NCBI RefSeq assembly: GCF_036971445.1
Contig: NC_091471.1
Span: forward strand, 295,554,001-295,618,000
Reading direction: 5' to 3'
Source of the DNA: Narcine bancroftii
Lineage: Eukaryota
DNA: 64,000 nt
The position numbers were made by a program, and so were the translations under genes. Each line of letters opens with the position of its first letter. The stretch's first letter is position 1. The notes beneath the pieces are model-generated. The model made no database searches, was not told where the DNA came from, and was given only the letters and a program-made list of their open reading frames with translations. Of this stretch, positions 16,501-43,500 are shown piece after piece.

Positions 16501-16690
16501 AATCACAAGCCACAGTTCTCCGTATACTGTAACCTTCAGCCAGTAGGCATCTTCCTTATGATATCTAGCATATTAGCAGACAGTCAAGCTCGTGCACGTA
16601 ATTGATACCTTCCATGGCATTACAACATCCTCTTAGAAAGAGGGTGTATGCTTGTAGAGTTTTTGTGTCATCCAGTTTTATTGATGACTA

Positions 16691-17535: not shown

Positions 17536-20439
17536 GCCATCATGAAAGAACTTTCTCCATATAAGGTGCAGCAATTTGATGCCAAAATGTTCCTGTAGTA
17601 AAGACTGAATCCTCTGTTCAAAATCATATGCAAGCAACTCTTTACAAGTTCCCTTGGCTGAACTCTTGTGTACTGTTCCAGATAATGGAGACAATCTCTG
17701 GGGTTTTTATTCTTGCTTTCAATACTGTATCTAAAAAATTTAATGAACGCATGGTACTTAAGTGGGTCACCATCAAAAACTTTAATCTCCTTCTTGATCA
17801 TGGAAGAGAGAGAGTGTAGCTGAATTAATAATGCAGTGATTTCATTCTGCCTCTCCATGACTAAGAATTGGTTCTGTTTATTGTTGCTTGTAGCAGGTAA
17901 TGTAGCTGGAGATGTCACATGTGGATGCTCACCTGGATTTCTGATGCTTGACTGGAGTGTGAAGGGAGCTGTGGTGAGAGATTGGATTTGAGCTACAGCT
18001 CTGTCAACGGTTGTTATTATTGGTGTTTGTGGATTGGTAGCGCCATGCTTTGGGAGGTTCTGTCCATGTGTGCGCGTAACTGCAAACAAAAGGATTTGCC
18101 TTAACATTAATTGTTTTCTTTTCCTCTAATCCTTTCGCAAAATATGATTCCATACCATCAAACACTTCAGATAAGTTACTTTGAACACTGGTCTCCTTTG
18201 AGGCTCCTAATACCTTCACTTTGGCCATAGTAGCACCAATGTTTGCTTCCAGCTCCAGCTGCCCTTCCAAGGTGCAATTATCCTAAAGCAATTTTTGTTG
18301 TACAAGAGCAGACACTTCAGTCTCAGCCTTTATACGTGCAGATGTAACACTGGAAACTCTAGAACTTGATCCAGAAGAACTTTGTTTCCTTTTCCTGCTT
18401 TCAGCATTTGAAACACTGTTACCTGCATGTCAGATGTTGCCTTAATATTTGACTCTTTCTCCAGTTTGAATTGAAATCCTTTGCATTTTCATCCTCGTCA
18501 CCACCATTTTGTGACACACCTTCAGCCATTTCCAAGTAGCTGATTATGCCTTCTGCATTGGTTTTACAGGTCTTCATTCCCATCAACCAAAGCCAACTCT
18601 TCTTCTACTGCCTGTTTCAGCCTCGCAATGAGAATGCTTTCGGCATCACTTATGTCTAGGTTTCGCCACCTCAAATTTGACATCTACGACCCGCAAGACT
18701 GTGATATATTGCACCTCAATTGCGATGCCAGCAGCAGCGGCGGTGGTGGACAATTAACACGTCTCCCTCCAACCAATCCACCAAGCTCGAGCACCAAGCA
18801 CACAGAACACACGCCCAAAACCAACAGTCCCCGATGGACAAGCAGCAGCACATCCAAATTGTTCAAAGTTGCAACAAATAGACGGAAGGAATCCGCTTCT
18901 GAAGGCTGTGATGCACTGCTGTCAATAATATTGCTGTGGTTCTCAGCAAATAATTCTGCCAGCGAGTACATAGGACATTCTGCTCTTGGGTGAGAAGCTC
19001 TGGGCCCCTCTGTGGACGATAGAGGTGGATTGCTGTCAGCAGCCTGCGCTCGGCATTCCCAACATATTGTTTCAGTATCGCTTCAAACCAAAGAGGGGAA
19101 ACAGTCCAAATGTTCCATCAATATCCATTCAATCCAAAACTCCAAGGCGTCCATGCAGTTTTATCATAGATGTGGCTATTTTCTGTTGACTAAAATGTGT
19201 GACTACTATCCATGAAAAGGCTGCTCGTAGGCTAAGTAGGCTCTTAACTGTGACACATTGGAACAAATTCATAGTAAATTCCAGATACGTGAACACAAAA
19301 GGACTCGTAACATGACATGGTTGTTGTATGAAACATGATAAACGTGGTAATGTCATGGTTACAGTCAACAGAAAATACTCACCTTCCCCATCTCTATCCC
19401 GCCATACCAGTCAATACAGGCAAACCACTCCTAACCCCACTAAACCTTCACCCACACACCAACAACCGAAGTGAATGGCGTGTGCGCACCAGAAGAAACA
19501 GAACGCATGCAGCTTCTGGACCCCAGAACTCAGCTAACACCCACAGCCAAACCAACAACAATAAACAACACGCTTTTGGCTCTTACAATCATTCTTCTTT
19601 CAGTGGCCATGAGCTAAGGGTTCTTTCACAGACAGACATAATGGTGTAGCTTATTTATGAATGGTAATGTCAAGACTTTCAACAAGAAAGGTTTCAAGAC
19701 CATGATCTAAATCCTTGTGCTTGGACGTGAGCTCATCCAATCGTTAGATTGTACTGGGTGAGTGCTCAGGGCCTGCAGGTCATTCATGATGAATGCAGAC
19801 CAGATCCTTTTCAGCTCTCAGAATCAGAATTTATTGTCAAGAACATGTTTCACAAAGTTCATTGTTTTGTGGCAGCGTTACTGTGCAACACAGCTGCAAA
19901 ATTTGATATAAATTACATTCCCGCAAATGCACGATGTAAAAAAAATTACTGCAAAAGAAAAGAGAAAGTGAGTGGTTCATTGTCCATTCAGAAACCTGAT
20001 GGAGGAGAGAAAGAAGCTTTTTTGTGCCATTGGGTGTTTGTCTTCAAGCTCCTGTACCTCCATCTATAATGGTAACAGTGAAAAGAGGACATAACCTTGT
20101 CTACCAGATCTCAATGCACCAGTCATCTCTCGAAAATGCCCGTTGCAAAGGAAGGAGAAAAAAAAATTGACAAAAATGGAACTGTCCAAAATGTGTCCAG
20201 AGAAAAAGACAACAATTGTAGATCTGGAACCTTGAGAAACCAAAGAGAAACTGGAGGAACTCAACGGACAGTAAACATTTCAAATTGGACCCTTTTCCAA
20301 GACAAAAATGTTGACAATTCCATCTATAATGTACAAGTGAAAATCAGTCACAAAGTAATGCCCATTGATCTTTGGATAAGGATAACTCTCTTTTTTAAAA
20401 AAAAAATCACACAAACGAGGACATGCCATTAGATTTAAC

Positions 20440-20760: not shown

Positions 20761-22048
20761 TAATGTGGGAGGCAATTCTCCCACCAGGAGTGATGGTATC
20801 CAAATCACACTATTCACAGTAATGTCACTGCAGACTCTTTAAGTCCTAGCCTGGTCCCATACTGCGATGTGATATGGTCAAGGATATAGCTTGCTCTAAC
20901 AGCATAAAACATGAGCTGGGATATTTAAAAAGTAATTTCCTTGTTTGAAATGTATTCTCTTTGTCATTCTCAACACAGCTAAATGTACTGAGTCTGGTAC
21001 CAAGAGAACGGGAGTCCTAATTGCACAGTTGAGGGGGAGTCTTGACCGTGATTAGTTCTAGCACTGAGATTTGGCCTTAAACGTCAGCCATTCCGCACTG
21101 AGTTACTGCAGGCAGGACATTCAGGATGGGGTTTACATCAATGAAAGGGAATTTATCACAACCCAAAAGAAGGTGGCACATGGACCCTGGGGCAGGGTCC
21201 GCGCTGGGACAGGGTCTCCACCCCATCACCAGACTCCACCACATCACCAGGTTCCACCCAATCACAGGTATTTATATGGACTCTCCAGCCCTTCCAGTCT
21301 GCCACTGAACATACTGGTCTTAACGCTTTCCCAGTTCTGATGAGGTATCACCAAACTGTTTCTTCCCCTGCAGATGCTGCTGAACCCGCTGAAAACACCA
21401 AGTAATTTCTCATTTCATCTTGGATGTCTATTATATGCATTCTTGGTTTGCAGTGACAAATGGGCTGTTTCCCCCTCCTGTGAGAGAAGGAAGTGCCTAG
21501 TCTGAAAGGTAGCACCTCTGACAATGCTCATCTCCCTTAGCACTGCATTTGTGTCTGACAAAAGACTACGACTTGTAAGATCTCCCAATTTTATTTAATT
21601 CAGGATAATGTGGAGAAACCATGTCTCAGGAACCTCGAAAGGGTTAAATTTCACAAATTAAGTGTAGGTTGAGGCAAGGAACTGTGAATACAAGCATTAG
21701 GTGTAACAAGCACACCCTCTTCATATTACCAGAGTGCTTCTCCAACACTCCTGATGAAAAGGAAGCAGTGAGGATTGAGCCCTGCCTAAAACAAAGGTCA
21801 TCAAGACCTTTGTAAATTCAAGAACTTCTGGGAACAAGAGTCTCAAACTCTCTGAATTTTTCATTCTTTACAAACGTTGAACCTTCTCTTCCAAATATTT
21901 AGTTGGAAATGAAGAACCCTATTCCGTAATTTATTTTGAACTTTTAATTGCATATTTAATAACTTTCCTGAAATCCCTGACATCATTTCAATTTGTTTTT
22001 GACATTTGATTTATTTACAGTTAATGTGAGTCTTGCGCGAGGAAGCTC

Positions 22049-22402
22049 ATGACTGAAGCCACAACAGAATCACCGAGAATAACCTTCTCACTCTGGGATT
22101 ACGTCCTCTTGGCTGGGATGTTCACAGTCTCCATTGGGATTGGAGTATTTTTTGCTGTTCGCCATGGTGGGAGGAAGAAGGTGGATGAATTTTTCACAGG
22201 AGGAAGACAGATGTCAGCCCTACCTGTGGGTCTGTCTCTCGCTGCCAGTTACATGTCAGCCATTCAAGTGCTTGGAGTTCCTGTAGAGGTATACCCCTAT
22301 GGAGCCAAGCTTGTGCAGATGTGCCTGGGCCAAACACTGCCGATCACTGCCTATCTTTTCCTTCCCATCTTCTATCACTTGAGAATAACCAGCACCTATG
22401 AG
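22049..22402 (+). CDS. SLC5A5: Duplicated first coding exon, copy A (alternative exon or pseudo-exon), 118 codons
   Basis: [19 protein letters not shown]...ITSTYE then GTAAGC donor at 22403; acceptor-like TTTATTTACAG ends at 22020; ORF open with an in-frame 6-nt deletion relative to copy B. Confidence 0.7.
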
Positions 22403-24149
22403 GTAAGCAATTTCACCCCTTCTGCAATAAGCAATTGAATCTTTAAGTTTCTCTTGTAAATTAATTTCTGAAATGTCATTTCTACAAACCATATTCTTAA
22501 CTGACTGAAGACATTTAGACAATGCAAGAGCCTTACAGTCCAGAAAATAATTTAAATGTATTCATCCCACTGCTATTTTATATGTATACAGTAAGCTCCC
22601 ATGAAAGCAATGTGCTTATGAGCAGAGAATTCATTTTTAATGATGGGTCGGGTATTGGTCACCAGGACATTTGACAGTACTCTTAAACACCTCTGAGGTC
22701 CTCTAATACTGTATCTGCCCCTTGGTCATACCCAGATGCATCAGCTGTGCTGAAATCTATTGCATAGGACCCAATTCCCCAAGTTTCTGCCTTAGGAAGA
22801 AGTTACTTTGTATGGTCAGGATTCTGATGTGTGGCACCCTTTATCAATGGAATCATTTCCCACACATATGCCCTGTACATTGAGTTTTCTTGCTCTGAAG
22901 GGATGAATCAGTTAAGAGCTCCATGTTACTAACACTCAGATCTGCCTGTCTGACACCCTCTGCATCGGCTCCCTCTACTTTCCACTCTTCATATCTTTTT
23001 AAACAATTATTGAATTTGGTTCAGATATAATGAATTGTGTTTCATTATGTTTGTGGTGTAGAGGTCCATCTTTTGATCAGTCAATATCAACATCCTTAAA
23101 TCCCTTCCTCTGTCAGTCTGATAATAGGAATGGAATGCAAGTTTTTGAGGAGTTGGGTGATGAATGAAGTGGCTTGTAGAGCACAGAATCATTCTTTAGC
23201 CTCTTTGACCTATTCGAAAGCTTTTTTTCCCATCGTAACCTCATCTTTGACCTGTCCATCTTCCCCAACATTAACTCCTCTTTCTACCCCTTAACCCATT
23301 GATTCTCATGGCCTCATCACTGTCTGTCCTGGTGAAGTTCCTATTCTCTGATTGGAATTATTAGTGACTGGCTTGATTTGTGGCAGGATCTTGGGATTCA
23401 AGTCATGCTGCAACCATATAGAACATTGACTATGCTATAATTGGTGTGTTGTGTGCAATCCTGGTTGCTCTGTTAGAGGATGGATGAGGAGGCATTGGAA
23501 AGGGGACAGAAGAGATTTAAAAGGATGTTAGATGGTACAAGCCAAGGGAAGATGTACTGTATTTCCTATTGGGGATTGAGAGAGAGCTGGTGATGCAGTG
23601 TGTAAGGAAACATTGAATCTAGTAACTGTAATGCCATTCAGCATTACAGTGTCCATTGGAGGTGAATCAAAGTAAGACGTAGGGCTCTGAGGAGTGCAAT
23701 TGAGTCAAGTCAAGTTTATTGCCATCTGATTGCATAAGCACAACCCGACAAAACAGCGTTCTCCAGTCCTCAGTGCAAAACATGCAGACACACAACCAGA
23801 CATAACACACATATAGTCAAAACAGGATGAGTATTCATTCATACAAATGAATAAATAATGTTTTAGGATATGAAAGTCTTGGATGGTCAGTGTGAACAGT
23901 TCCTTTGGTCATTCAGCATTCTCACTGCCCGTGGGAAGAAGATGTTCCTCAGCCTGATGGTGCTAGCTCTGATCCTCCCGTACCTCTTCCCCGACAGGAG
24001 CAGCTGAAAGATACAGTGTGCAGGGTGGACAGGGTCCTCAGTGATTTTGTGTACTATCTTCAGACAATGATCCTGGTAGATCACATCTATGGGGAGAGGA
24101 GGGGTGAGGAGGTGGGGGGTGGGGGGGGTGAGAGCACAGGGATCCAAAA

Positions 24150-24810
24150 ATACAGATACATAATTTCCTGAAAGTGCGTCATTGATAAATAGGGTCAGAC
24201 AGAGAGTTGACACATTGGCCTTCATAAATCAAAGTATTGAGTGTAAGAGTTGGATGTTATGATGAAGTTGTATAAGACATTGTTGAGGCCAAATATGAAG
24301 CAGTGTGAGTAGTTTTGGTCACCTAACTACAGGGGGAAAAGAATCACGAAGATGAAAGAGTGCAGAGAAGATTTACTGGGATGTTTCCGGGACTTGAACT
24401 GAGTTACAGGGAAAGGTTATACCTTTATTCCCTGGAGCATCGGGGAATTAGGGAAGATTTTATAGAGGTATTTAAAATTGAGGGATGTTGATGGAGTAAA
24501 TGAAAGTAAGCTTTTTCCACTGAGGTTAGGTGAGAAACAAACTGGAGGACATGGGTTAAAGGTGAAAGGGGAAAAGTTTTGGGGTAACATTAGGGGAACC
24601 TTCTTTTCACAGAGAGTAGTGGAAGGGTTGAACAAGTTGCTTCAGCTGAATTTTGAGCTCAATTTTGACATTTAAGAAAAGTATGAACAGGTACATGGAT
24701 AGGAGGGATATGGAGGACTAGAAACTGGGTGTAGGTCAGATTAATAATTTGGCACTGACTAGAGGGCGGAAGGGTCTGTTTCTGTGCTGTAATGTTCTAT
24801 GGTTCTATGG
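24150..24810 (+). mobile_element. CR1 LINE 3' fragment
   Basis: SKLFPLRLGEKQTGGHGLKVKGEKF..RGTFFSQRVV; tail ttctatggttctatgg. Confidence 0.75.
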
Positions 24811-27800
24811 TTTCAGGCCTGAGACTTTCCTCAAGATATTATATCATCCAAGATGTCATTCTTCTTCAAAGAAAACGCGACTTCCCTCAACTACCATCCA
24901 ACTTGGTCCTAACCTACATGTATATACCATTACCTGCACATCTGCCTCCGTCCTCACAGTCAGCCATGACAGTATTCCCCTTGTCTTCACCTACCACTTC
25001 ACCAGTGTCATAGATGCTTCCATGCATGTGTCAGGGGTAGAGCCGGTCGCCGCTGGTGACGTATCCGGCACAATGTGCGAGAGTAGTAATACGCATGCAT
25101 GGGTCAGAATGGGGGTGCATACACCGTGATGGATCGCACACATGTGCAGGATTGCAGGAGGAGGAGATTGGAGCATCACGGTCACCCATGTGGCTGAGAG
25201 CCAATGAAAAGAGCAGGAGGGCTTTGCTGGGTGATGTTTGATGGGGAGAAAAAACTGCTGTAGTGTCTGAGAAAATTAAAGAAGGTCGACACCATTTTGT
25301 GCTGAAGAACGAGTGAGTTTTTTTAATTGTGTGCATATCGTATAACTTATAGACGCTACAAGTGGTGACCCTGAGGGTTCACAGCACTTTCTAAGTAAAA
25401 ATGGAATGCGATGAGTATAAACTAATTACAGGAACAATCACAGAGATTCAGATTGAGGTCCCCCCCCCCACCCTTTTATCAACAATGCACTGGCATGGTT
25501 CACAATCATCGAGGCATGTTTCTCCTCACTCATTGGATGTCGGAAAAAAAAGTTCGGCCTCCTTGTGGCGCCACTCCCAGAACAGATTGCCTGTGAAGTG
25601 GAAGATGTTCTTGTTAATCCAGTGAATAACTTCCCATACGGCATCCTAAAGGCTGATATTTTGGAGCAAACTCAGCTGTCCCAGGAGTCTCGTATTGCTG
25701 AACTGGTGGCCAACAGCATCCCAGGTGATAGGAAGCTGTCATAAATGCTGAGAAGTTGGCACTTGCTAGCTAGAGAAGAGCATATTGAAGGATGGAAGCA
25801 GAGATTCCTCCGATGTTTTCCTCCTCAAATTCAGGGACACCTAATAAGTGTCTTTCAGGCATCCACCCTTGAAGAATTAGCAAGATATGCCAACCTCATT
25901 ATGTCCACAACCTCTTCAGTGCAGCTAGAGGCATTGACCACTGCCCAGGAGAAAACCAAGCTAGAGCAACAAGCTACAGCATCCAGTCAGCAGAAGACAA
26001 GTGAGATGGAGCAGCAAATGGTAGCACTCACTGTGCAAGTCCAGGCTTTGACCACCCAACAGAATTACTCCCATTGGCCTAGTTGGAATCGCGCAGGTCA
26101 AAGATATGGGAGAGGCAACGGGTGGAGTATTTGTTGGAAGCACCAGAAATTTGGCGCTGCCATCTGGTCATGCCAGCCACCTTACAACTTCTACAAAACA
26201 GCAAGCAGGAAATGACCAGGCCCAGCAATAGAGGCAACTGCTGCTCATGGGCAACTCAGTCACCGCTTTTCCTCAAAGACCATCTCTCTTGTTTTCAATT
26301 TCATGTTGATTACAGTGCAGACATTTCTGTGGTCCTTCTGAAGAATGCAGACACCCTAATATGTCATCTGTTCTGTCCATCACAAATTATTCCCATTCAG
26401 ACAGAGCCAAAGGTTACTCATTCTGGATTTGTCTCAACAAACCATTCCAGTAGGTTTTTGCAATTGCTAATGTAGCGAATTCCATCACGGGGACGGATTT
26501 TCTGTCTCTTTTTTCACTGCTGGTGGATTTGAAGAATCACTGTGTATGAAAGTGAGCTGCATTTGTTGTCCCTCAAACATCATCTCCACCAGATGAGTCT
26601 CCAACCTAGCTCCTGCCCATTCCACGCATTACTCAACTTCTTCCTTTGCTTGGGGACCCCAGCATATCTCCATGGTGACATCAAACATGCGGTGACCCAC
26701 CACATAGAGACCAGTTGCAGATTGTCCCCAGATCATCTTAAAATTACAAAAGTGGAAATCGAGCACATGAAGAAGCTGGGAATAATTTGTAGATCTGGGC
26801 TTCACCACTACACATGGCCCTGAAGAAGTCTCCAAGGGATTGGCGGCTATGTGGGATTATCATGCTCTGCTCCATCATTCCTGACTATGACAACATTCTC
26901 ATTTTACTGGATTTCTCAGTAAACCTGCTCTGCAAACATGCATTTGCAAAGATAGACCTAGTGCGCCCCTACTACCAGATGGTTAAGGTTATGGCTTGCT
27001 CTAATAGCATAAAACATGAGCTGGGATTTTTAAAAAGTAATTTCCTTGTTTGAAATCCATTTTCCTCATCATCCTCAACACAGCTAAATGTACCAGGCTG
27101 GTACCAGGCAGGAAAGGGGAGAGAACTGAAGTCCTATTTGCACAGGTGAGGGGGAGTCTTGACCGCAATTAGTTCTGGCACTGAGATTTGGCCTTAAACG
27201 TCAGCCATTCAGCACTGAGTTACTGCAGGCAGGACAGTCTGCATTCAGGATGGGGTTTACATCAATGAAAGGGAATTTATCACAACCCAAAAGAAGGTGG
27301 CACATGGACCCTGAGGCAGGGTCCGTGCTGGGACAGGGTCTCCACCCCATCACCAGACTCCACCACATCACCAGGTTCCACCCAATCACAGGTATTTATA
27401 TGGACTCTCCAGCCCTTCCAGTCTGCCACTGAACATACTGGTCTTAACGCTTTCCCAGTTCTGATGAGGTATCACCAAACTGTTTCTTCCCCTGCAGATG
27501 CTGCTGAACCCGCTGAAAACACCAAGTAATTTCTCATTTTATCTTGGATGTCTATTATATGCATTCTTGGTTTGCAGTGACAAATGGGCTGTTTCCCCCT
27601 CCTGTGAGAGAAGGAAGTACCTAGTCTGAAAGGTAGCACCTCTGACAATGCTCATCTCCCTTAGCACTGCATTTGTGTCTGACAAAAGACTACGACTTGT
27701 AAGATCTCCCAATTTTATTTAATTCAGGATAATGTGGAGAAACCACATCTCGGGAGCCTCTAAAGGGTTAAACTTTCACAAACTACGTGTAGTTTGAGGC

Positions 27801-28169
27801 AAGGAACTGTGAATACAAACATTAGGTGTAACAAGCACGCCCTCTTCATATTACTGGAGTGCTTCTCCAATACTCCTGATGAAAAAGAAGCAGTGAGGAT
27901 TGAGCCCTGTCTGAAACAAAGGTCACCAAGACCTTTGTAAATTCAAGAACTTCTGGAAACAAGAAAGAGTCTCAAACTCTCTGAATTTTTCATTTTTTAC
28001 AAACGTTGAACCTTCTCTTACAAAGATTTAGATTAATGCTGTTCCGTAATTTAATTTGAACTTTTAATTGCATATTTAATTATTTTGCCTGAAGTCCCTG
28101 ACATAATTTCAATTTGTTTTTGACATTTGATTTATTTACAGTTAATGTGAGTCTTGCGCGAGGAAGCTC

Positions 28170-28529
28170 ATGGCTGAAGCCACGACAGATTCACCGAGAA
28201 TAACCTTCTCGCTCTGGGATTATGTCCTCTTTGCTGGGATGTTCACAGTCTCCATTGGGATTGGAGTATTTTTTGCTGTTCGCCATGGTGGGAGGAAGAA
28301 GGTGGATGAATTTTTCACAGGAGGAAGACAGATGTCAGCCCTACCTGTGGGTCTGTCTCTCGCTGCCAGCTTCATGTCAGCCATTCAAGTGCTTGGAGTT
28401 CCCGTAGAGGTATACACCTATGGAGTCAAGTTTGTGCAGATGTGCCTGGGCCAAACACTGAATGCAGTACTCACTGCCTATCTTTTCCTGCCCATCTTCT
28501 ATCGTTTGAGAATAACCAGCACCTATGAG
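28170..28529 (+). CDS. SLC5A5: First coding exon, copy B (closest to the NIS consensus), 120 codons
   Basis: [24 protein letters not shown]...[12 protein letters not shown]...[13 protein letters not shown]...ITSTYE then GTAAGT donor at 28530; acceptor-like AG at 28140-28141. Confidence 0.9.
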
Positions 28530-31500
28530 GTAAGTGATTTCACACCTTCTGCAATAAGCAATTAAATCTATAAGTTCCTCTTGTAAATTAATTTCTGAAA
28601 TGTCATTTCTACAAGACATATTCTTATCTGACTCGTACACAATACAAGAGCCTTACAGAAAATAATTTAAATGTATTCACCCTACTGTTGGTTTATGTGT
28701 GTACAGCAAACTTTCATGAAAGCAACATGCTAATGTGCAGAAAATTCATTTTTGATGATGGGTCATGTTCTTCTTTAGCTTGGCTTCGCGGACGAAGATT
28801 TATGGAGGGGTAATGTCCACATCAGCTGCAGACTCGTTTGTGGCTGACAAGTCCGATGCAGGACAGGCAGACATGGTTGCAGCAGTTGCAAGGGAAAATT
28901 GGTGGGTTCGGGTTGGGTGTTGGGTTTTTCCTCCTTTGTCTTTTGACAGTGAGGTGGGCTCTGCGGTCTTCTTCAAAGGAGGTTGCTGCCCGCCGAACGG
29001 TGAGGCGCCAAGATGCACGGTTTGAGGCGATATCAGCCCACTGGTGGTGGTCAATGTGGCAGGCACCAAGAGCTTTCTTTAGGCAGTCCTTGTATCTCTT
29101 CTTTGGTGCATCTCTGTCTCAGTGGCCAGTGGAGAGCTCACCATATAACATGATCTTGGGAAGGCGATGGTCCTCCATTCTGGAGATGTGACCTACCCAG
29201 CGCAGTTTGATCTTCAGCAGCGTGGATTCGATTCTGTCGGCCTCTGCCACCTCGAGTACTTCGATGTTGGAGATGAAATCGCTCCAATGAATGTTGAGGA
29301 TGGAGCGGAAACAACGCTGGTGGAAGCGTTCTAGGAGCCGTAGGTGATGCCGGTAAAGGACCCATGATTCGGAGCCGAACAAGAGTGTGGGTATGACAAC
29401 GGCTCTGTATACGCTAATCTTTGTGAGGTTTTTCAGTTGATTGTTTTTCCAGACTCTTTTGTGTAGTCTTCCAAAGGTGCTATTTGCCTTGGCGAGTCTG
29501 TTGTCTATCTCGTTGTCGATCCTTGCATCCGATGAAATGGTGCAGCCGAGATAGGTAAACTGGTTGACCGTTTTGAGTTTTGGGTGCCCGATGGAGATGT
29601 GGGGATGGGGATGGGGATGTGGGGATGGAGATGGGTCATGTATTGGTCTTTTAAACACCTCTGAGGTCCTCTAATCTTGGTCAAACCCAGATGCATCTGC
29701 TGTGCTAAAATCTATTGCGTAGGACCCAATTCCACAATTTTCTTTGTATGGTCAGTATTCTGATGTGTGGCACCCTTCATCAATGGAATCATTTCCTACA
29801 CATATACCCTGTTCATTGAGTTTTCTTGCTCTGAAAGGATGAATCAGTTAAGGGCACCATGGTTACTAACATTCAGATCTGCCTGACTGACACCCTTTGC
29901 ATTGGCTCCCTCTACTTTTCACTCTTCATATCTTTTTAAACAATTATTGAATTTGGTTCAGAAATAATGAATTGTGTTTCATTATGTTTGTGGTGTAGAG
30001 GTCCATCTTTTGATCAGTCAATATCAACATCCTTAAAACCCTTCCTCTGTCAGTCTGATAATAGGAATGGAATGCAAGTTTTTGAGGTGTTTCTGATGAA
30101 TGAAGAGGCTTGGAAAGCAGGGGCGTGGCATGATGGTGTAGGTGGGAGATGTGAGGAAGACACCTCTGCACCAGAATTATTTAAAACCCAATTTTAAAAA
30201 AATCTTTCATAAAACAACAGCATTAAAACTTTTTTGAAACAAGTGATAACAGGAATTAGGAGAAGAATTAAGGGACAGACAGTGAAAAAAAATGACTTCG
30301 AAGCAAGCAACAAGTACAGATGAATTTAGGCCTACCTTAGAAATGGATCCTGGAGACTTGCTTCCTCTTCCTCCATGATCGACTGAAAGTCCTGACAAAG
30401 ATCCAGGCAACACCAGCGCCACTTTCCTGGGTAACCAAGGAAGATGGCACTAGAAAATGACAACTTCATCTTCTTGAGTCATAGGATCAATCAAGGATGC
30501 GTGAATTTCTCTGCATGGACGCGACACAGGCTGCAACTCTGCCTGTGGGGGGGGTGCCGAACCTTGGCAGCCCAGTACTGCTGGACTGCCAGGGGAGAGG
30601 CCTAGACCCTGTACACGGGTCGAGCAAGCACCTACATCGACTGAAGAGGAAGAAGAAAATGTCAGGACCTTACCAGCAATAGAGGAGGAGGAGACATTGC
30701 TACATCAGGGTAGGCCTCTATCTTAATATGTGGCTGAAGGTAAAGTTGGAGCTTCTACAATTCCTTATTATGTGGATCCATCAAGCCAATTAGACACATT
30801 ATCAAAACATTAAAAATTGATTTAAACATTATCAACCCAAATGAGTCAGGGTTTTATATCTGTTAAAGATCAATTTGAAACAAGATTTAGTTTGACTGAA
30901 GAAATTATTACTATTAAGACTGATGTTTCAAAATGTGCAAAGATGGTGGATAAAATGCAGATTAAATTTCAGAAAATTGAAGAAGATTTTCAAGATTGTC
31001 AAGAAGGTAAAGATACGGTTGGCAAAATCAAAGATTCTTGGGAAGTTCAGAGTAATGACTTATTGAAAAAAATGATGTCTTGGAAAATCAAAGTCGCAGA
31101 AATAATGTGAAAATTGGTGGGTTTGCCTGAAGATTTTGAAGTTTCCAATCCAGTACAGTTTTTTCAGAAATGGATTCATGAGTTTTGGGAAAGGAATATT
31201 TTCCAAATGGTTTGGAGTTGGATGGAAATCATAGAGCTATTAGGAAGAAGCTTTTTCCAGGTCATCCATCACGCTCTATTCTAACTATGTGTTTATGTTA
31301 TCAAGATAAGGAAATGATTTTGAAAGTTGCAGTACAAAATGCAAGAAAACATTAGACCCCTTTGCTGGTCAGAAATAATAGCATATTTTTTAATGCAGAT
31401 CTGAGTCAAACTATTATTAAACGTCGCAACCCTGCCAAGAACGTGTTATGGAAAAAGGGTTATAAATTGGCTTTTAGAAACCTTGCTACACTCAAGGTCT

Positions 31501-34500
31501 TTTATGGAGAATTGCAATCGCAATTCTTTGCTGATGAAGACAATGCTCTTCTATTTGCTAATTCACATAATAAACACAAGGGGAGTCAAGATCAGTCTTT
31601 CCAACAAATGAAGTCGGCTCAAGAAAAGAAAATGGTTCACAGAAGGTGGAACGTCATGAACTAACTGAAATTGATATTGATGATCATCAAGTTAATAGAG
31701 ACTTGGAGGCAGCTTATCATACTGAAACGTTACTTATTACTCTTGGTTTTTTTTATTGTTCTGTTCAAGGGAGGTGATTTTGTTTATTCCTCCTTCCAAA
31801 GTTGTTGGCTACTTGGTGGCATTGGTCACTTCCCATAAAATAGAGGGGGGGGTGTGGGTAGTACTGCTTAAGTGGTGATGATTTTTTTCTTTTGGGGTTT
31901 TTTTCTCTCTTTTCTATTGAGGAGATGTATTTTATTTTGCAAACAGCCATGGATTGGAATCCCATCATTGCGGGTGGTGGGAATTTGATGTTTACAGTAT
32001 CAAATATGTTGACGATGAATTTGAATTTTGCGACATTTAATGTTAACGGACTCAACCATCCAATGAAGAGAAAGAGGGTTTTGGCTTGTATAAAGAAAAT
32101 GAAAGTAGATATTGCTTTTTTATAATAGGCTCATTTGACTGAGAAGGAACATCAAAAGTTAAAAAGAGATTGGGCTGGCCAAGTTATAGCTTCTTCTTTT
32201 AATTCGAAAGTGAGAGGTGTTGCTATTTTGGTTAATAAGTTGCCTTTTAAATTAGAATCAGTTATTAGTGATTCAGCTGGTAGACCTCTTGTTGTAAATT
32301 GTCATATCTATTGGACTTCTGGGCTCTTATGAATAGTTATGCTCCAAATGACAAGACATTTATTCAAGATTTCTTTTTTTAAATTTGGTGCAAGCATATG
32401 AAAATGTGAAGATTTTAATTGTTGCTTAGATCTATTATCAGGTAAATCTCTGAAAACAGTGACCTGAACTAAAATGGCAAAATGAATTTAATCATTAATG
32501 AAAGAAATGAATTTCGTTGATATTTAGAGAAGATTGAATCCTAAGAAGGGTTATTCATTTTACTCTTTCCGATATGATTCTTATTCTAGAATAGACTTTT
32601 TTTTAAATTATCGGCTCAATTGCAAGGACGTATAGTAACTGTTGAATATAAGAGTAGAATATTGTCAGATCATTCACTTTTAATAATACCATGTATAGTT
32701 TCTGAAAAAATAGATACTACTTATAGCCTGCTGGTGGATTTGAAGAGTCCACTGTGCTGTGGACTGTAGCATTTGTACGAAAGTGAGCTGCATTAGTTGT
32801 CCCTCAAACGTCATCACGCGCCTGACAAGTCTCCAACCTAGCTCCTGCCCATTCCGTGCATTGCTTCCTTTGTTTAGAAACCCCCATCAAATATGCAGTG
32901 ACCCACCACATAGAGAACCAAGGTCCTCCAGTTGTAGCACATGCACGTAGATTGTCCCCAGATCGACTTAAAATTGCAAAAGCAGAATTTGACCACATGA
33001 AGGAGTTGAGAATAATTTGTAGATCTGGGCTTCACCGCTGCATATGGCCCTGAAGAAGTCTCCCAGGGATTGGCGGCTATGTGGGGATTATCATACTCTG
33101 CTCCACCATTCCTGACTATTACAACATTCCCAATTTTTCAGGATTTCTCAGTGAGCCTGCTCTGAAAACGTATTTGCAAAAATAGACCTGGTGCACACCT
33201 ACTATCAGATTCCAGTGGAACCTTCTGATATTGCCAAGACAGCAGTAATTACTCCTTTCGGCACATTTGAATTTCTTCAGAAGCCATTTAGTTTTCAGAA
33301 TGCAGCTTAGACATTCCAGTGGTTTATGGACTGCATACGCTCCAGCCTCAATTTTGTGTATATTGATGATATTCTTGTGGCAAGCATGGATGAGGAAGAA
33401 CACAAGCACCATGTTACGACACTGTTTCAGAGATGCGATGAATTTAGCATTGTAATCAATCCAACTAAATGCGTTTTTGGTGGTGCTACTGAACTTATAT
33501 TTTTGGAACATAAAGATACCAGGCATGTACCTTACCAGATTAAATGAAGGTGCAAGGAATTCAAGATTTTCCTACTCCCAATTAAAGTGTTTTTTTAGGG
33601 ATGATGAAATTTCTTCCACTGTTTCCTGCCAAATGGAGCAGCATCTCTCTTACCCCCTAACTGACCAACTTAAGGGGATCCAATAAATCAGCTTCTCAAA
33701 AAACACTGAGTCTGGGCAACAATGCTGTTCATGCTTTCAACAATGCTTGTACACTAGAAGCCTGATGCCCTGTTCTCTCTTACCATGGATACCTCTGTCA
33801 GTGCCGTGGAAACAGTGTTAGAACAAAGAGTCAGTGGGAGGTTGGAACCTCTGGCTTTGTTTACAGCCAAGCTGTCACTGGTTCAGGCAAAATGCAGCAC
33901 ATTTAGGTGAGAAGTCATAACCATCCAGTGAAGCCTTTCTGTTACCATTTATACAAACCACCAGTCTCTTACACATACAATGTGAATGAGTGCACACCAC
34001 TACTCAGCACTTGGATTTCACTTTACAATTTTCCTTGGACGTGTGGCACATCCAAGGGAAGGCAAATGCGGTGGCTGACGCCCTGTCCAAGCGCGACATA
34101 GATGCCTTACATATGACAACTACCATCGATTTCACTGCCATGGCTCATGCCCAACACACCAAACCCGATCGCACTGTCAAATCAAAAGATCAACACAGGT
34201 CTCCATTTAAAAGACATATGCCTGGGTGACTCAGGTGAAATATTAACTTGTGACTTTTCACACAAGGAGGCCTCAGCTTTTTGTACTCACAACAATGCAG
34301 TGGGAGATTTTCAGTGCCATGCATAACCTATCTCACAAGGCAGGAGAGCATCGATCAAGCTGATTTCAGAACCGTTTACTTGGCCTTGTGTTAAGCAGGA
34401 TGTCTGATTATGGGCAAGTGCTGCTTGCCGTGTCAATGCTCTAAAGTCAACAGTCACACGAAATACAAATGGAGACTCTTCTATTACAGATTCTCATTTC

Positions 34501-37500
34501 GATCACGTACACCTGGACTTGGTCAGTCCGCTTCTGCCATCCAGAAGATATAGTTATCTACTCATGCATGAGGACTGAGCTACTAGGTTGCAAGATGCTA
34601 TTCCTGTCACCAACATCTCTGTGAAGACTGTCATTCAGGCATTTGTAGATCATTGGGTGCTAGCTTTTGATGTTCCAGTCACCATTACAACAGGCCAAAG
34701 GACTCAGTTCAAGTCAGCATTGTTTCAAGCTCTCACTGATCTTTTGGGCACCTCCCGAATTCGGACTAACTCTACCATCCGCAGGCCAACGTGGAGGTTT
34801 ACCACTGAAAAGTAGAGAAGTAATTGAAAGTAGCATTGACAGTGGGTGACGATGCATCTCAGTAGACCAAACGCTTCCTCATGGTCCTCCTCGGCATGCA
34901 TACTGCCGTAAAAGTAGACCTTGGTTGTTCAGCAACAGAAATAGTATATGACACCATGTTGACTCTGCCTGGTGAATTTCTTAATCCAAGTCTGGGAACA
35001 ACACTATATGATCCCTCGAATTATGTCATCCATCTACAGGAAAGCATAGTTGCTCAGACCAACATCCACATGAAATGCTTCACCTGCAATGTATGTGCCG
35101 AATTATTTACAACACTGCATGCATGTGTTCATTTGACATGACACTGTCCGCTGACCACTTCAGCCTGTTCACATCAGCCCTAACGAAGTCGCACAATGTA
35201 CCTGAAAACTTTTGTGTTCTGGAGAAATTCAAAACCTGGCACTGTCTCCATTGACCGCATGAAGCTGGTGTCTATCGATGGTCTGCTTTCTTCATTGCTG
35301 CCAAAGTCAAAAGATCAGCTACACCTCTGCCAGTTTGAACTTAACCGGACTAAGTCAGGCTAAAATATCTGCCCTCCAGACTGTTACATAGTAGTCAATC
35401 ACCTCCTCGCAGAGCTTTGGGGCTGAGCAGGGGAGCTATCATGGTCGCATACTTGCGTGAGTCGGGTGAGAGCCAGTCACCAGTGGTGACGTATCTGGAT
35501 CAATAAGCGAGAGTAGCAATGGTCTCTTGCACCAGCAAATTGGAGGAACAACACCTTATCATCCATAAAAAAGAGAAGCAGAACTAGGCCATTCAACTCA
35601 TCAAGTCTACTCCATGATTTAACCATGAGCTGATCTATTTTCCCCACTATCCAGCCTTCTCCTCATAACCTTTGATGTGCTGGCTAATCAAGAACCTATC
35701 AATCTCTGCCTTAAATACATCCAATGACTTGGCCTCCACAACCGCCTGTTGCAACCAATTCCACAGATTCACCACTCCTGGCTGAAGAAATTCCTCTGCA
35801 TCACTGTTCTGTGAATGCCCCTCAATCCCGTCTGTGCACCCTCCAACCATATGGCATTAACATCAACTTCTCTAGCTTCTGATAGCCACCCCACCCTTCC
35901 CTATATCTACCTTTCCCCTGCCCTAATTTATCTTTTCCTTTAGCTGTCTTTCTCTTTATTCCCTTTCCCTCTGACTCCTTTCCCCCAGCTCTGCATTCAC
36001 AGGGTCACCTCCTCCCCCAATCAACTCTCACCTTTCCTCTCCTGTCCTCCCATCTATATCCAATTATCGCCTTTTGTCTATTGGTCTCTGCTCCTCTTTC
36101 CTCCCTCTCCCCAACTTTTTTTTATTTCAAGGCCCACCTGCTTTTTGCTCATGCCTTGAAGAAGGACTTGGGCCCAAAGTGTCAGTTATACAGTATAGGT
36201 ACTCCCCAACTTGCGACCTATGCAACTTGCATCCATCCACACATTTGTTTAAAAATATAAAGAAAAAAATATAAAGTTTACACGGTTTATGTTGCATTTG
36301 ACAAACTATAACAGGAATACAGGGAACGTAAGAACCAAAATGTCCACACTTATCTTGTTAGTCAGTGTCCCTGGGTCCGTAGGCTGGGTGCAGCCATCTT
36401 GATTCCTGTGCTTATGCAGGATTCTTCGTTTGGTGCATGCATGGTGGATTCACGTATTAGAGTTCGGTTGCATGCACAAGAGTTAAGGGCACAAATTCAA
36501 TATCGTCAGGGCACTTAACTCTCATGCTGAATTCATCCAGCATTTCGGTATTTTTACTAAAATCCAGCTCTGCAGACTTTTGTATTTCACACTATTAGTT
36601 TCAAGGTAATTATGGAAAAGCATTGGACTGTAAGTCTGGTTGTGATGCTAAATAGGAGATAGTCCAACTTTGGAAATATAAGAAAGATCTGGCAAGAATA
36701 GATTGGGACGGGTGTTTACTGGGAAAGATCTGGTTGGTAAGTGGGTGTTCTTCAAAGAGGAAATTTTGAGAGCACAAAGTTTGACTGCTCCTGTCAGGAT
36801 TAAAAGCAAGACTCCAGGTAAAAGGGCCTTGTGTTTTGAAAGTTATTGCAGTCTTGATTAAGAAGGAGGAGGAGGTGCATAGCAGGTATAGGCAGGAAGG
36901 AACAAACAAGATACTTCAGAAGAAGAAATGCAAGAAAACAAGGAGGAAGAAAATGAAGAGGGCCAGAGGAAGGTTTGAAGTTGCTCTGCTAGATAAGGTG
37001 AAGGAAAATCCCAAAGGTTTTCTATAGATATACAAAGAGCAAAAGAATAGAAATGGACAAAATTGGTCCACTTCAATGCATGGAGCCAAAAGAAATGGAA
37101 GGGATCTGAAATAGATTTTTTGCATCTGTATTTACTCATGAGATGGACACAGTCTACAGAAATGAGGCAAAACAGCAGTGAGGTCATGGAATCTATACAG
37201 ATTACAGAAGAGGAGGTCCTTGCTGCCTGGAGGTAAATAGGAGTGGGTCAATCCACAGGGCCTGAAAAGATTCTCTCTGACCTTCAGGGAGGCTAGTGTA
37301 GAGGTTGTAGGGGCCCTAGCAGAAATATTTAAAATGTCCTTAGCCACAGCTGAGATACCAGAGGATTACATGATACCTAATGGCATTCTGTTATTTAGAA
37401 AGGCTCTAAAAAATAACCTGAATAATTATAGACCAATGAGCCTGATTGCAATGGGTAAGTTATTTATGGATACATAAATATTTGGATAGCCAGGGACTGA

Positions 37501-40500: not shown

Positions 40501-43500
40501 CACCTTAAATCTTTGCCCTCTAGTTCTGGATTCCCTGCTCCTGAGGGGAAAAAAACTGGAACCCTTCAACGTATCTATGCCTTTCTTGATATCTTTATCC
40601 TCTAGATTCCCCCTCAGCCTCTTGGGCTCTCGGGAGAAAAGTCCCAGACTACCTGACCTCTCGTCATAATACTTCAAGCCCAACAGTCTCAGTAACATTC
40701 TTTTTTTTTGCACCCTTCCCAGTTTAATGATATCTTTTCTACAGCGGGGCGACCAAAAATGCACAAAACACTCTAAGTTCAGTCTCATTAACTTGTACAG
40801 TTGTAACATGACATCCCTGCTCCTGCATTCAATGCCCTGACTGATGAAAGGAAGTGTGCTAGCCACCTTCTTCCACATCCTGTCTACCCCCATCAACACT
40901 TCCATGGAAATGAACAAGTCTCTTCACTGTCCACTGGACCATGAATTTTTGGTATCTTCCACAATTGTGCTTAATCGCTAACAATGCCCATCTATGGGCA
41001 TTTAATTGTTTATCATCACAGGTACCAAGAAACACTGACAAGTTTTGTTGTGCACGCTACCAAGGGAAGTCAACTCATTCAGTAAAGCCATGCAGAAATA
41101 AAATGTTTATGACTACAAACAAAACCAGTTTCCTGAAGTCCATAACTGGCTCCTTTGGGGGAGAGTTAACATCAGGACGGAAACACACCGTGAGAACATT
41201 CAAAAGCCACTTTTGTGTTGCAATACATTTACACCACAGCCTGTTAGCTCTTGGATGTGCAGGCTAAATGATGTGTTTTTTGAGTCTGTTTTAAACGTTT
41301 CTCCTGCATGTTACTGGATCATATTGTTTTCCTTTCACAGTATCTGGAGCTGCGCTTCACCAAGGCTCTCCGGCTATGTGGAACTTTACAATTCTTGGTT
41401 GCCACGGTAAGGGCTTCAGAACATCTATCCCTAAAACTAAGCTTCACTGAAGACATAGGAGTTGCAGTTATCACGCTTCACAAATGCAGCAGGAGACAAA
41501 AGGAGCTGTGAGCTCAAAGATAGTAATCTTTGGTTTCCCTGCACAGCAGAGCAACTGTGTGGTGGAACTGTTGCCCACAAAAAAACTGATCATATTTTAC
41601 CCAAAGATTACAAAGTACAGCTGACCTCCCACTATTTGGAAGTAGAGTGTTCCTATGGAACGTTTCGTAAGCCGAAATGGCGTAAAGCAAAGAATGATTA
41701 TCATTGATTTCTATGGGAAAATTCTTTGAGTGTTCCCAGACCCAAAAAGCAACCTACCAAATCATACCAAGTAACACATAAAACCTAAAATAACACTAAT
41801 AAATAGTAAAAATGATGAAATGATGAATACACAGCCTATATAAAGTAGAAATAATGTATATACAGTGTAGTTTCACTTGACAGAAGCGGGAAGACATTGA
41901 GCACGCTGGGAGGTGGTGGTGGTGGTGATGGTATGTTAGGCTGAGTCGTCGGAGGTTGAAATGGTGGGAGGTAAGAGTATAGGAAAGAGAGAGAGAGAGA
42001 GGAAGAGGGTCATCTCCTGTATTAACCTCATCATCGTCTGAATCCATCACGGCAGGCAGGTCACTAATGTCTACACCTTCTATGTCTGCCTGCCTTGATG
42101 TCGAAGGTCAAGGTTCATCGTCTGCTGTGGCTGATGTGTAGTTCCCGGGGAAGGAGCTTGGCGGCACCACTCTCGCTGCTCGGGGTGTGCACTGCCTCGA
42201 TAATGGCTAAACGTTTATTATTTGCAAAAACAAAAATCCTCCAAACTTCTTTTGGTTAGGTACTGATGTAGGTCTTTCGTAAAAGTGAAGTGGCGTAAAA
42301 CAAACTTTTGAAAAGTGGGGGAATACCTGTACATGGAAATTTCTTCTGCAGAGAGATGCCATTTTAGATATGTGTTGAGAAAATGTGGATAAACACACGA
42401 GAGAAAAAGAGATCAAAATGTAATGGTGACTGAAATGATGAGGTTCAGAAGGAGCAATACCTTGGTCCCATGATATTCCGTGACTTGTTTTAGAGTCATG
42501 GAGTCATACAGCATGAAAATGAGTCCTTCAACTAAACTTGCCCACGCTGACCAAAATACCCCACCCATACTTGCTCACAAGGCTCCAAACAACATCCTGT
42601 CTAAGGCTCTTGTAATTTTGTATACCTCAGAATGATCCATCCCTCAGAATGATCCACCCCTCAGCATCCTCCAACACTCTCCTTACAACTCAAACACTCC
42701 AGTTTTGGCAACATCTTTGTGAATTTTACTGCGCCATTTCTAGATTAATTTCTAAACTTGAGACTTCTAATCAATGCTTCATCTTATGAAGGTATACATC
42801 CTAAATGCTTTCTTCAATACATTATTCACCTGTCCCAATATATTCAGGTTCAAAGGTCTCTGGCATTTTCTCCCTTTGTCTAGAGTTTGACCTAGTGGAT
42901 TACTTCACATTGTTCTGCCTAAAATTCCATCTGCCACCACTCCATCCAGCTTTCCAGCTGATCTACGTCCAAGTTCATCTTTAGACTATCAATTTTCATG
43001 TCATGTCATGTTAACCAGATCCCCTGCGTTCCTTCCAACCCATTTTATCTATATTATATCAACATCAAAGGTCCCTACACCATTATCACAGCATCCCACT
43101 GATGACAGAGTTCTTGTCCACCACTATTCTCTGCCTCCTCACACCAAGTGAATTTTAGATTGAAGCTTAGCAGAGCTGAAGTGGTGCCACACATAGCTTC
43201 ATGCAGAGCTTCACAGGACCAGATCCTTTGATTCCAAGTTGCTATTCTCAACTGTGACAGAACAGTCTGGGTGGATAATGAAGTCAGAGGAGAGATGGGC
43301 TGATTGTAGAAGTTTATGAAGCAGATCGGTGAAGCCTTAATGGGAGATTGTACTTCAGCCTGTCAGCTCAGCAAGGTCAATGAAAAATGGCTTTAATTGA
43401 TCAAGTGGCCTCCTTATGATTAAGTATTCTGTCAGCAGGCCCAGTTTTTCAGTTTTGATCTCCTTTGACTATCCTTTATATTTTTAAACATTGCAGGTCC

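What the first reader, a model, noticed from the sequence alone, without database searches (positions are those of the whole stretch)
22021..28529. Two versions of the NIS first coding exon that differ in the substrate-binding helices: candidate switchable iodide-transporter isoforms
Seen: copies A and B both have an acceptor-like AG 28 nt before the ATG, an open frame and a phase-0 GT donor, so either could splice in frame to exon 2 (41341). They differ at 8 amino acids (T/A, E/D, L/F, Y/F, P/T, A/V, L/F, H/R) plus an in-frame indel (QTL-PI-TA versus QTL-NAVL-TA). Established (numbering from my recalled human NIS): the SFMSAVQ segment (F67, Q72) and the MCLGQ segment (G93, Q94) form the Na+/anion site, and G93 influences selectivity. 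Copy A carries F67->Y and loses the Asn just after GQ. Inference: A is either a functionally altered N-terminal module (different anion preference or affinity in a marine fish) or a decaying duplicate. B keeps the consensus residue at these sites, which also fits relaxed selection on A.
Basis: partly seen in the sequence, partly recalled or inferred. Interest (0 to 1): 0.75.

Follow-up and report, generated by a model that had tools for sequence, protein, structure and literature searches.

The report
Decaying duplicate NIS exon, read antisense
An electric ray's iodide-pump gene carries a second, damaged copy of its first coding exon that is likely a dead leftover of a 6-kb duplication, and the one RNA assembly that holds it likely reads it backwards as part of a non-coding transcript, so a switchable second transporter is unlikely.

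Summary
The window holds the 5' part of slc5a5 (NIS) of Narcine bancroftii: exon B equals the RefSeq protein. Exons A and B lie in a 6.1-kb tandem duplication (flanks 9% diverged, with gene-conversion tracts), also present in a second DNA sample. A departs from the consensus at 6 of 57 near-invariant columns (F20L, F67Y, F87L, R111H, NAVL to PI in TM3) and adds T82P; B departs at none, and 151 of 152 homologs at three or fewer. An open frame survives neutral decay about 19% of the time, so it shows little. One RNA assembly holds exon A spliced, but its ends fit GT-AG on the minus strand, not the sense donor. They predict a 91-nt middle exon, found uniquely (1 of 201 lengths). A is therefore likely an exon of an antisense RNA that starts in or beyond a decayed retrotransposon in intron 1. 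The A-to-exon-2 junction was neither seen nor excluded, because the joints table was cut. Best reading: decaying duplicate with incidental antisense use (0.77). Functional altered transporter: about 0.06.

The parts
20874..26980 (+). tandem duplication unit A (upstream DNA, exon A, start of intron 1, 5' part of a decayed Gypsy-type retrotransposon)
   Evidence: self-BLAST blocks 20874-22649, 22680-23183, 26543-26980 against unit B
26979..33210 (+). tandem duplication unit B
   Evidence: flanks 160 substitutions and 21 indels in 1772 aligned bases
22021..22402 (+). exon copy A (coding 22049-22402, 118 codons): damaged duplicate of NIS coding exon 1
   Evidence: 22068-22345 present with 0 differences in a second DNA sample (record 8)
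28142..28529 (+). exon copy B (coding 28170-28529, 120 codons): the annotated NIS coding exon 1
   Evidence: 100% identical to residues 1-120 of XP_069784649.1
21140..21620 (.). near-identical tract, copy A (likely gene conversion; partner 27264-27744)
   Evidence: 4 substitutions in 481 bases against a 9% flank rate, P about 4e-15
27264..27744 (.). near-identical tract, copy B
   Evidence: an A-type contig of the second DNA sample runs through part of it (record 11)
22112..22248 (.). 137-bp stretch identical in exons A and B (partner 28233-28369); possible conversion tract
   Evidence: such a run arises in 1.2% of simulations at 5% divergence
33536..33704 (-). antisense RNA, exon a (5'-most piece seen; the true start lies at or beyond 33704), inside the decayed retrotransposon pol
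   Evidence: RNA contig X5 record 1, letters 1-170, 0 differences; minus-strand donor CTG|GTAAGG
30336..30426 (-). antisense RNA, exon b (91 nt; predicted from the contig's unlisted 92 letters, not seen directly)
   Evidence: only strong candidate at the required length; 1 of 201 lengths yields one as good
22019..22395 (-). antisense RNA, exon c: 377 nt covering nearly all of exon A, start codon included
   Evidence: record 1 letters 263-637 = 22393..22019, 0 differences; minus acceptor at 22397-96 and donor at 22018-17 fit both ends
19877..19948 (-). candidate place of antisense exon d (72 further contig letters; not located, outside the stretch laid)
   Evidence: strongest fitting minus-strand acceptor among 5 listed in 12000-21421; inference only
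41341..41406 (+). NIS coding exon 2 (66 nt)
43497..54646 (+). NIS coding exons 3-6 (43497-43548, 48051-48118, 51732-51886, 54506-54646); the rest of the gene lies beyond the window
   Evidence: tblastn of P0004; boundaries read
32728..35520 (+). decayed Gypsy-type LTR retrotransposon pol, broken by stops and frameshifts; the right end of the duplication falls inside it; gag-like piece in unit A at 25457-25741
   Evidence: RVT_1 at 33311-33544 (E 2e-9) and weak RNase H at 33758-33907; DUF7041; 68-bp 78% LTR-like pair 25023-25090 / 35454-35520. 'Gypsy-type' rests on recalled motifs and domain order
28768..29604 (-). 3' fragment of a high-copy LINE-like element inserted in unit B only, about 240 bases behind B's donor
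   Evidence: 89-94% like 5362-6151 and 63544-64000; RVT_1 frame at 4528-5844

Best explanation
Copy A is likely a decaying leftover of a 6.1-kb tandem duplication of the NIS 5' region, copy B is the exon in the annotated NIS protein, and A likely survives in RNA mainly as an exon of a spliced antisense transcript. Shown: the tandem unit, its breakpoint in a decayed retrotransposon, A's lesions at near-invariant residues, B's identity with the RefSeq protein, and an RNA contig that joins exon A to 33535-33704. Inferred steps: (1) the duplication copied upstream DNA and exon 1 but not exon 2, after the split from the more distant ray sampled; (2) the copy next to exon 2 (B) stayed under purifying selection, while sense transcripts from A would tend to splice onto B's AG and stop after two codons; (3) A then gathered changes without regard to function, while patchy gene conversion between the copies slowed its decay; (4) a promoter in or beyond the intronic retrotransposon drives minus-strand transcription, and the spliceosome uses sites that are the mirror image of the sense sites at both ends of exon A. 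A protein made from A would likely misfold or fail to couple transport, because two residues are missing and a proline is placed in TM3 three residues after Q94.
For: Tandem unit and no exon 2 in unit A. Damage: Y67 in 0 of 155 NIS homologs, L20 0 of 151, P82 0 of 155, L87 0 of 155, H111 0 of 154; TM3 span is 11 residues in 154 of 154 and 9 in A. Departures at 57 near-invariant columns: A 6, B 0, homologs 0-1 in 146 of 152, 2-3 in 5, and 5 in one row with gaps. 71.5% of possible missense changes give a residue unseen in homologs; 5 of A's 6 are unseen (P 0.45 under neutrality), both of B's 2 are seen. Neutral survival of AG, ATG, GT, no stop and net frame: 0.19. F67 gates the exit and F87 roofs the cavity (10.1101/2022.04.07.487502, passages). 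Short in-frame deletions V287_G288del and A439_P443del, and T354P, are listed as loss-of-function NIS alleles (PMC6316985, passages). Antisense use: record 1 of X5 ends at 22393, 22019 and 33535, each explained to the base by minus-strand GT-AG sites; the sense donor needs 22402. The predicted 91-nt exon exists uniquely. Longest frame from a Met in the 637 joined bases: 30 aa. A's donor on B's AG reads TTA ATG TGA.
Against: A has no stop or frameshift, and keeps ATG, GT and the ion-site residues S69, Q72, V76, M90, G93, Q94. Pairwise pN/pS is 0.37 (8 missense, 7 silent; Fisher P 0.06). A's own ratio is 0.32-0.97 depending on how the silent changes are split, and at the extreme split neutrality is rejected at P 0.048. 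The exon (5.4%) is less diverged than the flanks (9.0%). Substitutions at position 67 are reported to lower iodide transport more than perrhenate transport, so Y67 alone could shift selectivity. Five differences cluster in TM2-TM3. Contigs give no strand and no single molecule; the strand is inferred from splice sites, exon b from a length. The joints table showed 15 rows and hid 905, so a sense A-to-exon-2 join is not excluded. Only 2 RNA samples were laid, tissues unknown.
Confidence: 0.77

Rival explanations
1. A is a working alternative first coding exon (own promoter, skipping B) that gives a NIS with a changed gate (Y67, L87, shortened TM3) and another anion preference.
For: Open frame, intact sites, all exon-1 ion-contact residues kept; upstream DNA duplicated with it and partly 99% identical; position 67 affects iodide more than perrhenate; pN/pS 0.37; lesions shared by a second DNA sample (record 8).
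Against: Six departures at near-invariant columns and a TM3 deletion seen in 0 of 154 homologs; no A-type full-length protein among the best 120 of 1254 hits or in the one-member cluster; the RNA contig on A fits antisense; B carries an AG that would catch A's donor and give a stop.
Confidence: 0.06
2. A is dead as protein but kept for regulation: the antisense RNA with its 377-nt A exon (about 95% complementary to NIS mRNA, start codon included) damps NIS by pairing or by transcription across B and its upstream DNA, or the doubled upstream DNA serves as a second promoter or enhancer kept alike by conversion.
For: Spliced antisense RNA over exon A; exon and upstream tract less diverged than flanks; protein-level signs of a doubled exon 1 in 3 of 20 other elasmobranch species fetched; precedent in antisense RNAs from pseudogenes (PMC2984423, abstract).
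Against: Low contig depth (14); the antisense sites are the mirror image of the sense sites and are present in B too, so they need no selection; two exons lie in intronic and retrotransposon DNA; conversion explains the high identity without function; no conservation test was possible.
Confidence: 0.12
3. A is transcribed in sense and acts as a decoy: A-to-B splicing gives a 120-codon upstream frame with an early stop, which lowers NIS output through nonsense-mediated decay.
For: Strong donor on A (GAG|GTAAGC), AG with a T-rich tract before B, join reads TTA ATG TGA.
Against: No A-to-B join among the rows shown; use of the AG as a sense acceptor is not shown; a regulatory role would need tissue control, untested.
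Confidence: 0.04
4. The two copies are an assembly artefact (two haplotypes placed in tandem).
For: A 481-bp tract is 99% identical; the 0.96-share DNA runs may be the assembly's own sample.
Against: Flanks differ by 9% with 21 indels and by different insertions; a second sample from another study holds A-type (22068-22345, 24948-25272) and B-type (27798-28042) contigs with 0 differences; RNA samples hold an A-type and a B-type contig.
Confidence: 0.01

Closest known systems
Sodium/iodide symporter NIS (SLC5A5), Pfam SSF PF00474; rat structures 7UUY, 7UUZ, 7UV0, 9ZFL
   Same: Both exons encode TM1-TM3 of NIS; best solved match 152 bits against 104 for SMCT1 and 88 for SMVT; B is the annotated exon.
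   Different: A has F20L, F67Y, T82P, F87L, R111H and NAVL to PI, none seen in 151-155 homologs; no transport shown.
[quoted passage not shown]
   Same: Homologous first coding exons in tandem, same phase, upstream DNA copied with each.
   Different: Those events are mostly ancient and conserved (PMC8373072 passages; PMC9741552 search listing); here the pair is lineage-young, one copy is damaged at invariant sites, and its splicing to the shared exon is not shown.
Antisense transcripts from pseudogenes and duplicates (PMC2984423, abstract) and cis natural antisense RNAs from retrotransposon promoters (recalled)
   Same: A spliced, apparently non-coding RNA reads a dead copy backwards and is complementary to the parent mRNA.
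   Different: The dead copy is one exon inside the same locus, so the RNA is cis by transcription and near-complementary, not fully complementary, by its exon; no effect on NIS is shown.
Doubled NIS exon 1 or gene in other elasmobranch annotations (Hemitrygon akajei XP_072924159/60; Chiloscyllium punctatum XP_072450427/28; C. plagiosum XP_043577362/63; white shark XP_041060856 and XP_041060860)
   Same: Two copies of exon 1 (seen in Hemitrygon, inferred in Chiloscyllium) or two whole proteins (white shark).
   Different: Those exon copies are identical or one residue apart in protein and may be recent or uncollapsed haplotypes; DNA not seen.

Membership tests
NIS / SLC5A5 | SSF domain, closer to NIS than to SMCT or SMVT | tested here: met
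   PF00474 for both exons; B scores NIS 152 bits, SMCT1 104, SMVT 88 (A not searched there)
NIS / SLC5A5 | ion-site residues in exon 1 (S69, Q72, V76, M90, G93, Q94) | tested here: met
   kept in A and B (residue list)
NIS / SLC5A5 | invariant gate and helix residues (F67, F87, N97, full-length TM3, R111), for copy A | tested here: not met
   met for B
NIS / SLC5A5 | Na+-dependent, perchlorate-sensitive iodide uptake | not testable with these tools
   needs expression assays
Functional tandem-duplicated alternative first exons | homologous exons in tandem, same phase, each with start and donor | tested here: met
Functional tandem-duplicated alternative first exons | each copy spliced in sense to the shared next exon | tested here: inconclusive
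   B by RefSeq model; for A the only contig fits antisense and 905 joints were hidden
Functional tandem-duplicated alternative first exons | both copies keep the conserved core | tested here: not met
   A 6 and B 0 departures at 57 near-invariant columns
Functional tandem-duplicated alternative first exons | pair conserved across species | tested here: inconclusive
   shared with organism B, which is nearly identical (2 differences in 1951 bases over 7 of its 8 listed contigs; the eighth is an A-type contig laid on B); organism C gave one B-length contig
Classical pseudo-exon (disabled) | stop, frameshift or lost splice site | tested here: not met
   frame and sites intact, so A is filed as decaying, not as disabled; chance of this under neutrality 0.19
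Classical pseudo-exon (disabled) | neutral ratio of missense to silent change | tested here: inconclusive
   0.32-0.97 for A by split of silent changes
Natural antisense transcript | spliced at GT-AG on the strand opposite the gene and overlapping a sense exon | tested here: met
   three contig ends fit minus-strand sites to the base; unique 91-nt exon; strand inferred, not read
Natural antisense transcript | non-coding | tested here: inconclusive
   longest frame from Met 30 aa in 637 of 709 contig letters; ends unknown
Natural antisense transcript | effect on the sense gene | not testable with these tools
   needs stranded expression data and knock-down

The most novel reading that the evidence does not exclude
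Electric rays hold a second, tissue-switched NIS N-terminus with a natural Tyr gate (Y67), an opened roof (L87) and a re-registered TM3 that moves a different anion, with antisense transcription across the locus choosing between the copies; doubled NIS first exons in stingray and bamboo sharks would be the same design kept alike by gene conversion.
Probability: 0.05. Interest if true: 0.72.

Novelty: new member of a known kind. Interest (0 to 1): 0.26.

Why it matters
As read here it is ordinary genome turnover: a partial tandem duplicate that decays, is patched by gene conversion and is picked up by antisense transcription. It matters as a caution: an open frame with intact splice sites, even with RNA words matching the whole exon, did not mean sense use, and only the junction ends showed the likely strand. 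Two leads remain. A spliced antisense RNA over the NIS start exon was not found in print, and NIS exon 1 seems doubled in several elasmobranch annotations. If A did make a working transporter, it would be a natural test of the F67 gate and of TM3 in anion selectivity.

Tried and rejected
No whole genome is held, so no search for further copies was possible. Run search: 11 runs listed, no RNA holder listed on record as RNA; X5, X7 and X8 are guessed RNA. 4 of the 11 were laid; X8 was not. X5's word share of 0.72 equals the 0.717 expected for a whole spliced exon A. I first took this for sense expression and dropped that after the junction ends. Sense readings of record 1 failed: no 83-90-nt GT exon fits with an AG acceptor, and the two 87-nt candidates between A and 33535 have GC donors and do not explain the end at 22393. 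Parts without cover, not used as evidence: X7 shows no depth on unit A's first three bins; X5 shows none at 28411-28505 and 28535-44. X5 has a contig of depth 9.3 at 28509, inside the 24 bases that A and B share at their ends. It may be a sense junction to exon 2 from either copy; its letters were not shown, so it is unresolved. Organism C gave about one exon's worth of cover over both copies, too weak to show a single copy. AlphaFold models were too poor to use: full B protein pLDDT 48, helix 79-112 unbroken; exon A peptide pLDDT 51, break at 96-98; no fold search was run. No model of a full A isoform was made. Search for other Narcine isoforms by the C-terminal region found only X1; exact exon peptides are not in the collection; 'near' search with A gave 20 hits, best 74%. 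Pfam on 112 frames of 1-20900 found only a LINE reverse transcriptase, so no minus-strand gene that the antisense RNA could lead into (short exons would be missed); 56 frames in the unit middles gave only DUF7041. Rfam 18000-42000: 0 matches. Earlier findings: none. Papers: F67Y + NIS 0; slc5a5 + elasmobranch + duplication 0; 17 listings for slc5a5 + antisense, 15 of 133 for shark or skate thyroid, 15 of 26 for the species name, none on this locus by title or abstract start. The preprint's supplement with the position-67 mutants could not be seen and may bear on F67Y. The donor scoring table uses recalled approximate frequencies, for ranking only.
Full report
1. Observation. A has AG at 22019-20, ATG at 22049, 118 open codons and GT at 22403; B has AG at 28140-41, ATG at 28170, 120 codons and GT at 28530. 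Exon 2 is 41341-41406 in phase 0. The 8 residue differences, 7 silent differences and the 6-nt indel are confirmed.

2. Identity. B is 100% identical to residues 1-120 of the Narcine bancroftii protein XP_069784649.1, sodium/iodide cotransporter isoform X1. Its best solved relative is rat NIS (152 bits; SMCT1 104; SMVT 88), and B position = rat position + 1. Coding exons 1-6 lie in the window, and only exon 1 is doubled.

3. Anatomy. The copies belong to a head-to-tail duplication: unit A 20874-26980, unit B 26979-33210. The right breakpoint falls in the pol region of a decayed LTR retrotransposon (RVT_1 and weak RNase H; gag-like DUF7041 in unit A). Flanks differ by 9.0% with 21 indels in 1772 bases, the coding exon by 5.4%, and a 481-bp upstream tract by only 4 bases (P about 4e-15). 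A 137-bp stretch of the exon is identical (1.2% of simulations). I read these as gene conversion (inference). A second DNA sample from another study holds A-type and B-type contigs, among them 22068-22345 with 0 differences, and an A-type contig with the 10 differences expected against B, so the pair is not an assembly error. A more distant organism gave one contig of B's length with 14 differences in 202 bases. Of the 10 listed, 4 are places where A and B agree against it, 4 where A agrees with it, and 2 lie in A's lesion. This fits a duplication after that split, or conversion since.

4. What A's changes do. Among 155 NIS homologs (156 fetched; one SMCT-like fusion left out) Y67 occurs 0 of 155 times, L20 0 of 151, P82 0 of 155, L87 0 of 155, H111 0 of 154, and the TM3 span is 11 residues in 154 of 154 against 9 in A. 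At 57 near-invariant columns A departs 6 times and B never; of 152 homologs covering the region 119 depart 0 times, 27 once, 4 twice, 1 three times and 1 (a gapped row) five times. A's missense changes hit unseen residues as often as random changes would (5 of 6, expected share 0.715); B's two are both seen elsewhere. In the NIS structure preprint (10.1101/2022.04.07.487502; passages and section 5) F67 closes the exit path, F87 roofs the cavity, and Q72, V76, M90, Q94 line the iodide site. A keeps those four, S69 and G93. The same text says changes at 67 lower iodide transport more than perrhenate transport; which changes were made is in a supplement I could not see. A review lists two short in-frame deletions and T354P among loss-of-function alleles (PMC6316985, passages). 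That A's protein would fail is inference from these points; the fold models were too weak to test it.

5. Is the open frame a sign of selection? A simulation with the flank rates gives 0.19 for keeping AG, ATG, GT, no stop and net frame on one lineage. Pairwise pN/pS is 0.37 (Fisher P 0.06). Six of the 8 missense changes fall on A by comparison with other rays and sharks; A's ratio is 0.32-0.97 by the unknown split of silent changes, with neutrality rejected (P 0.048) only if six of seven silent changes are on A. Some constraint cannot be excluded, and conversion from B would mimic it.

6. RNA. Run X5 (guessed RNA) holds 0.72 of the words of 21960-22480, the share expected for the whole exon without introns. 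Its record 1 (709 letters, depth 14) lies on 33704-33535 (letters 1-170) and 22393-22019 (letters 263-637) with no differences, and accounts for all depth in the bin over A's 3' part (6.42 expected, 6.41 seen). A sense exon should end at 22402, and no sense middle exon fits. On the minus strand all three ends fit GT-AG sites to the base once shared letters are allowed for: donor CTG|GTAAGG at 33536, acceptor at 22395, donor ACT|GTAAAT at 22019. The unlisted 92 letters then require a 91-nt exon with fixed flanking letters. Two places pass; one, 30426-30336, has a strong donor and acceptor, and of 201 lengths from 50 to 250 only 91 yields a candidate as good. The 637 joined bases hold no frame above 30 aa from a Met. 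So exon A is likely read backwards as part of a spliced non-coding RNA that begins in or beyond the retrotransposon. Limits: contigs carry no strand and need not be one molecule, exon b is predicted, and 905 joints were hidden, so neither sense junction to exon 2 could be read. Run X7 holds a B-type contig at 28224-28398.

7. Mechanism. B, next to exon 2, is the exon in the annotated protein (shown). Sense transcripts from A would meet B's AG, and that join reads TTA ATG TGA; read-through into the intron stops after 11 codons. So A would need B to be skipped to make a full protein (inferred). Freed from selection, A gathered damage, conversion patched parts of it, and minus-strand transcription found splice sites that mirror the sense sites at both ends of the exon; the same sites are present in B. 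I give this 0.77; a regulatory role for the antisense RNA or the doubled upstream DNA 0.12; a working altered transporter 0.06; a decay decoy 0.04; artefact 0.01.

8. Comparison. Functional N-terminal tandem exon substitutions use alternative promoters and are mostly old and conserved (PMC8373072, passages; PMC9741552, listing and one passage). A meets their anatomy but fails the conserved-core test, so I do not file it there. It is not a disabled pseudo-exon either, since no stop or frameshift exists. Antisense RNAs from dead copies are a described class (PMC2984423, abstract). I found no report on this locus, in a library that lacks most subscription papers.

9. Wider lead. Of 20 other elasmobranch species whose NIS proteins were fetched, 3 show protein-level signs of a doubled exon 1: Hemitrygon akajei chains two identical copies, Chiloscyllium punctatum has two 649-aa isoforms that differ at residue 34 only, and C. 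plagiosum has one sequence under two accessions named X1 and X2. The white shark has two whole proteins 31 residues apart. Narcine's own duplicate is invisible at protein level, so the count may be low; it may also include uncollapsed haplotypes.

10. Verdict. Real feature, mostly ordinary: new member of a known kind, interest 0.26. The boldest reading not excluded, a switched NIS with another anion preference, has about 0.05 and would deserve about 0.72.

Noticed in passing
window 33704-33536, 30426-30336, 22395-22019 (minus): A likely spliced antisense RNA across the NIS 5' region in one RNA sample; its last 72 contig letters were not located (candidate acceptor at 19948).
   Followed up: partly
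window 21140-21620 and 27264-27744: 481-bp tract 99% identical between otherwise 9%-diverged units; holds an 18-bp tandem repeat. Possible regulatory DNA kept alike by conversion.
   Followed up: partly
window 26757-27423: X5 mean contig depth 22 against 0.38 in X7 in this bin upstream of B (its A twin lay outside the stretch laid); source not resolved.
   Followed up: no
window 28506-28529: An X5 contig of depth 9.3 lies on the 24 bases shared by the ends of A and B; may be a sense junction from either copy.
   Followed up: partly
window 22024-22029 and 28145-28150: A start-stop (ATG TGA) sits 25 bases before the NIS start codon in both copies, out of frame.
   Followed up: no
proteins P0003, P0127, P0131, P0132, P0011: Signs of a doubled NIS exon 1 in Hemitrygon akajei and two Chiloscyllium species; both C. 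punctatum forms share five exon-1 differences from C. plagiosum, which would fit concerted evolution or separate duplications.
   Followed up: partly
proteins P0014, P0135: White shark has two whole NIS-like proteins 31 residues apart; the second has F87C and N97S, near the places damaged in Narcine copy A.
   Followed up: no
window 4528-5844, 28768-29604, 63544-64000: High-copy LINE-like family with a 439-codon open reverse-transcriptase frame; a 3' piece is inserted in unit B only.
   Followed up: no
window 38862-39305 and 39989-40445; 44101-44773 and 55985-56657: Inverted repeat pairs (90% and 83% identical) in NIS introns; likely transposon pieces.
   Followed up: no
window 1001-2000: 254 N bases (assembly gap) near a simple-repeat tract.
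   Followed up: no
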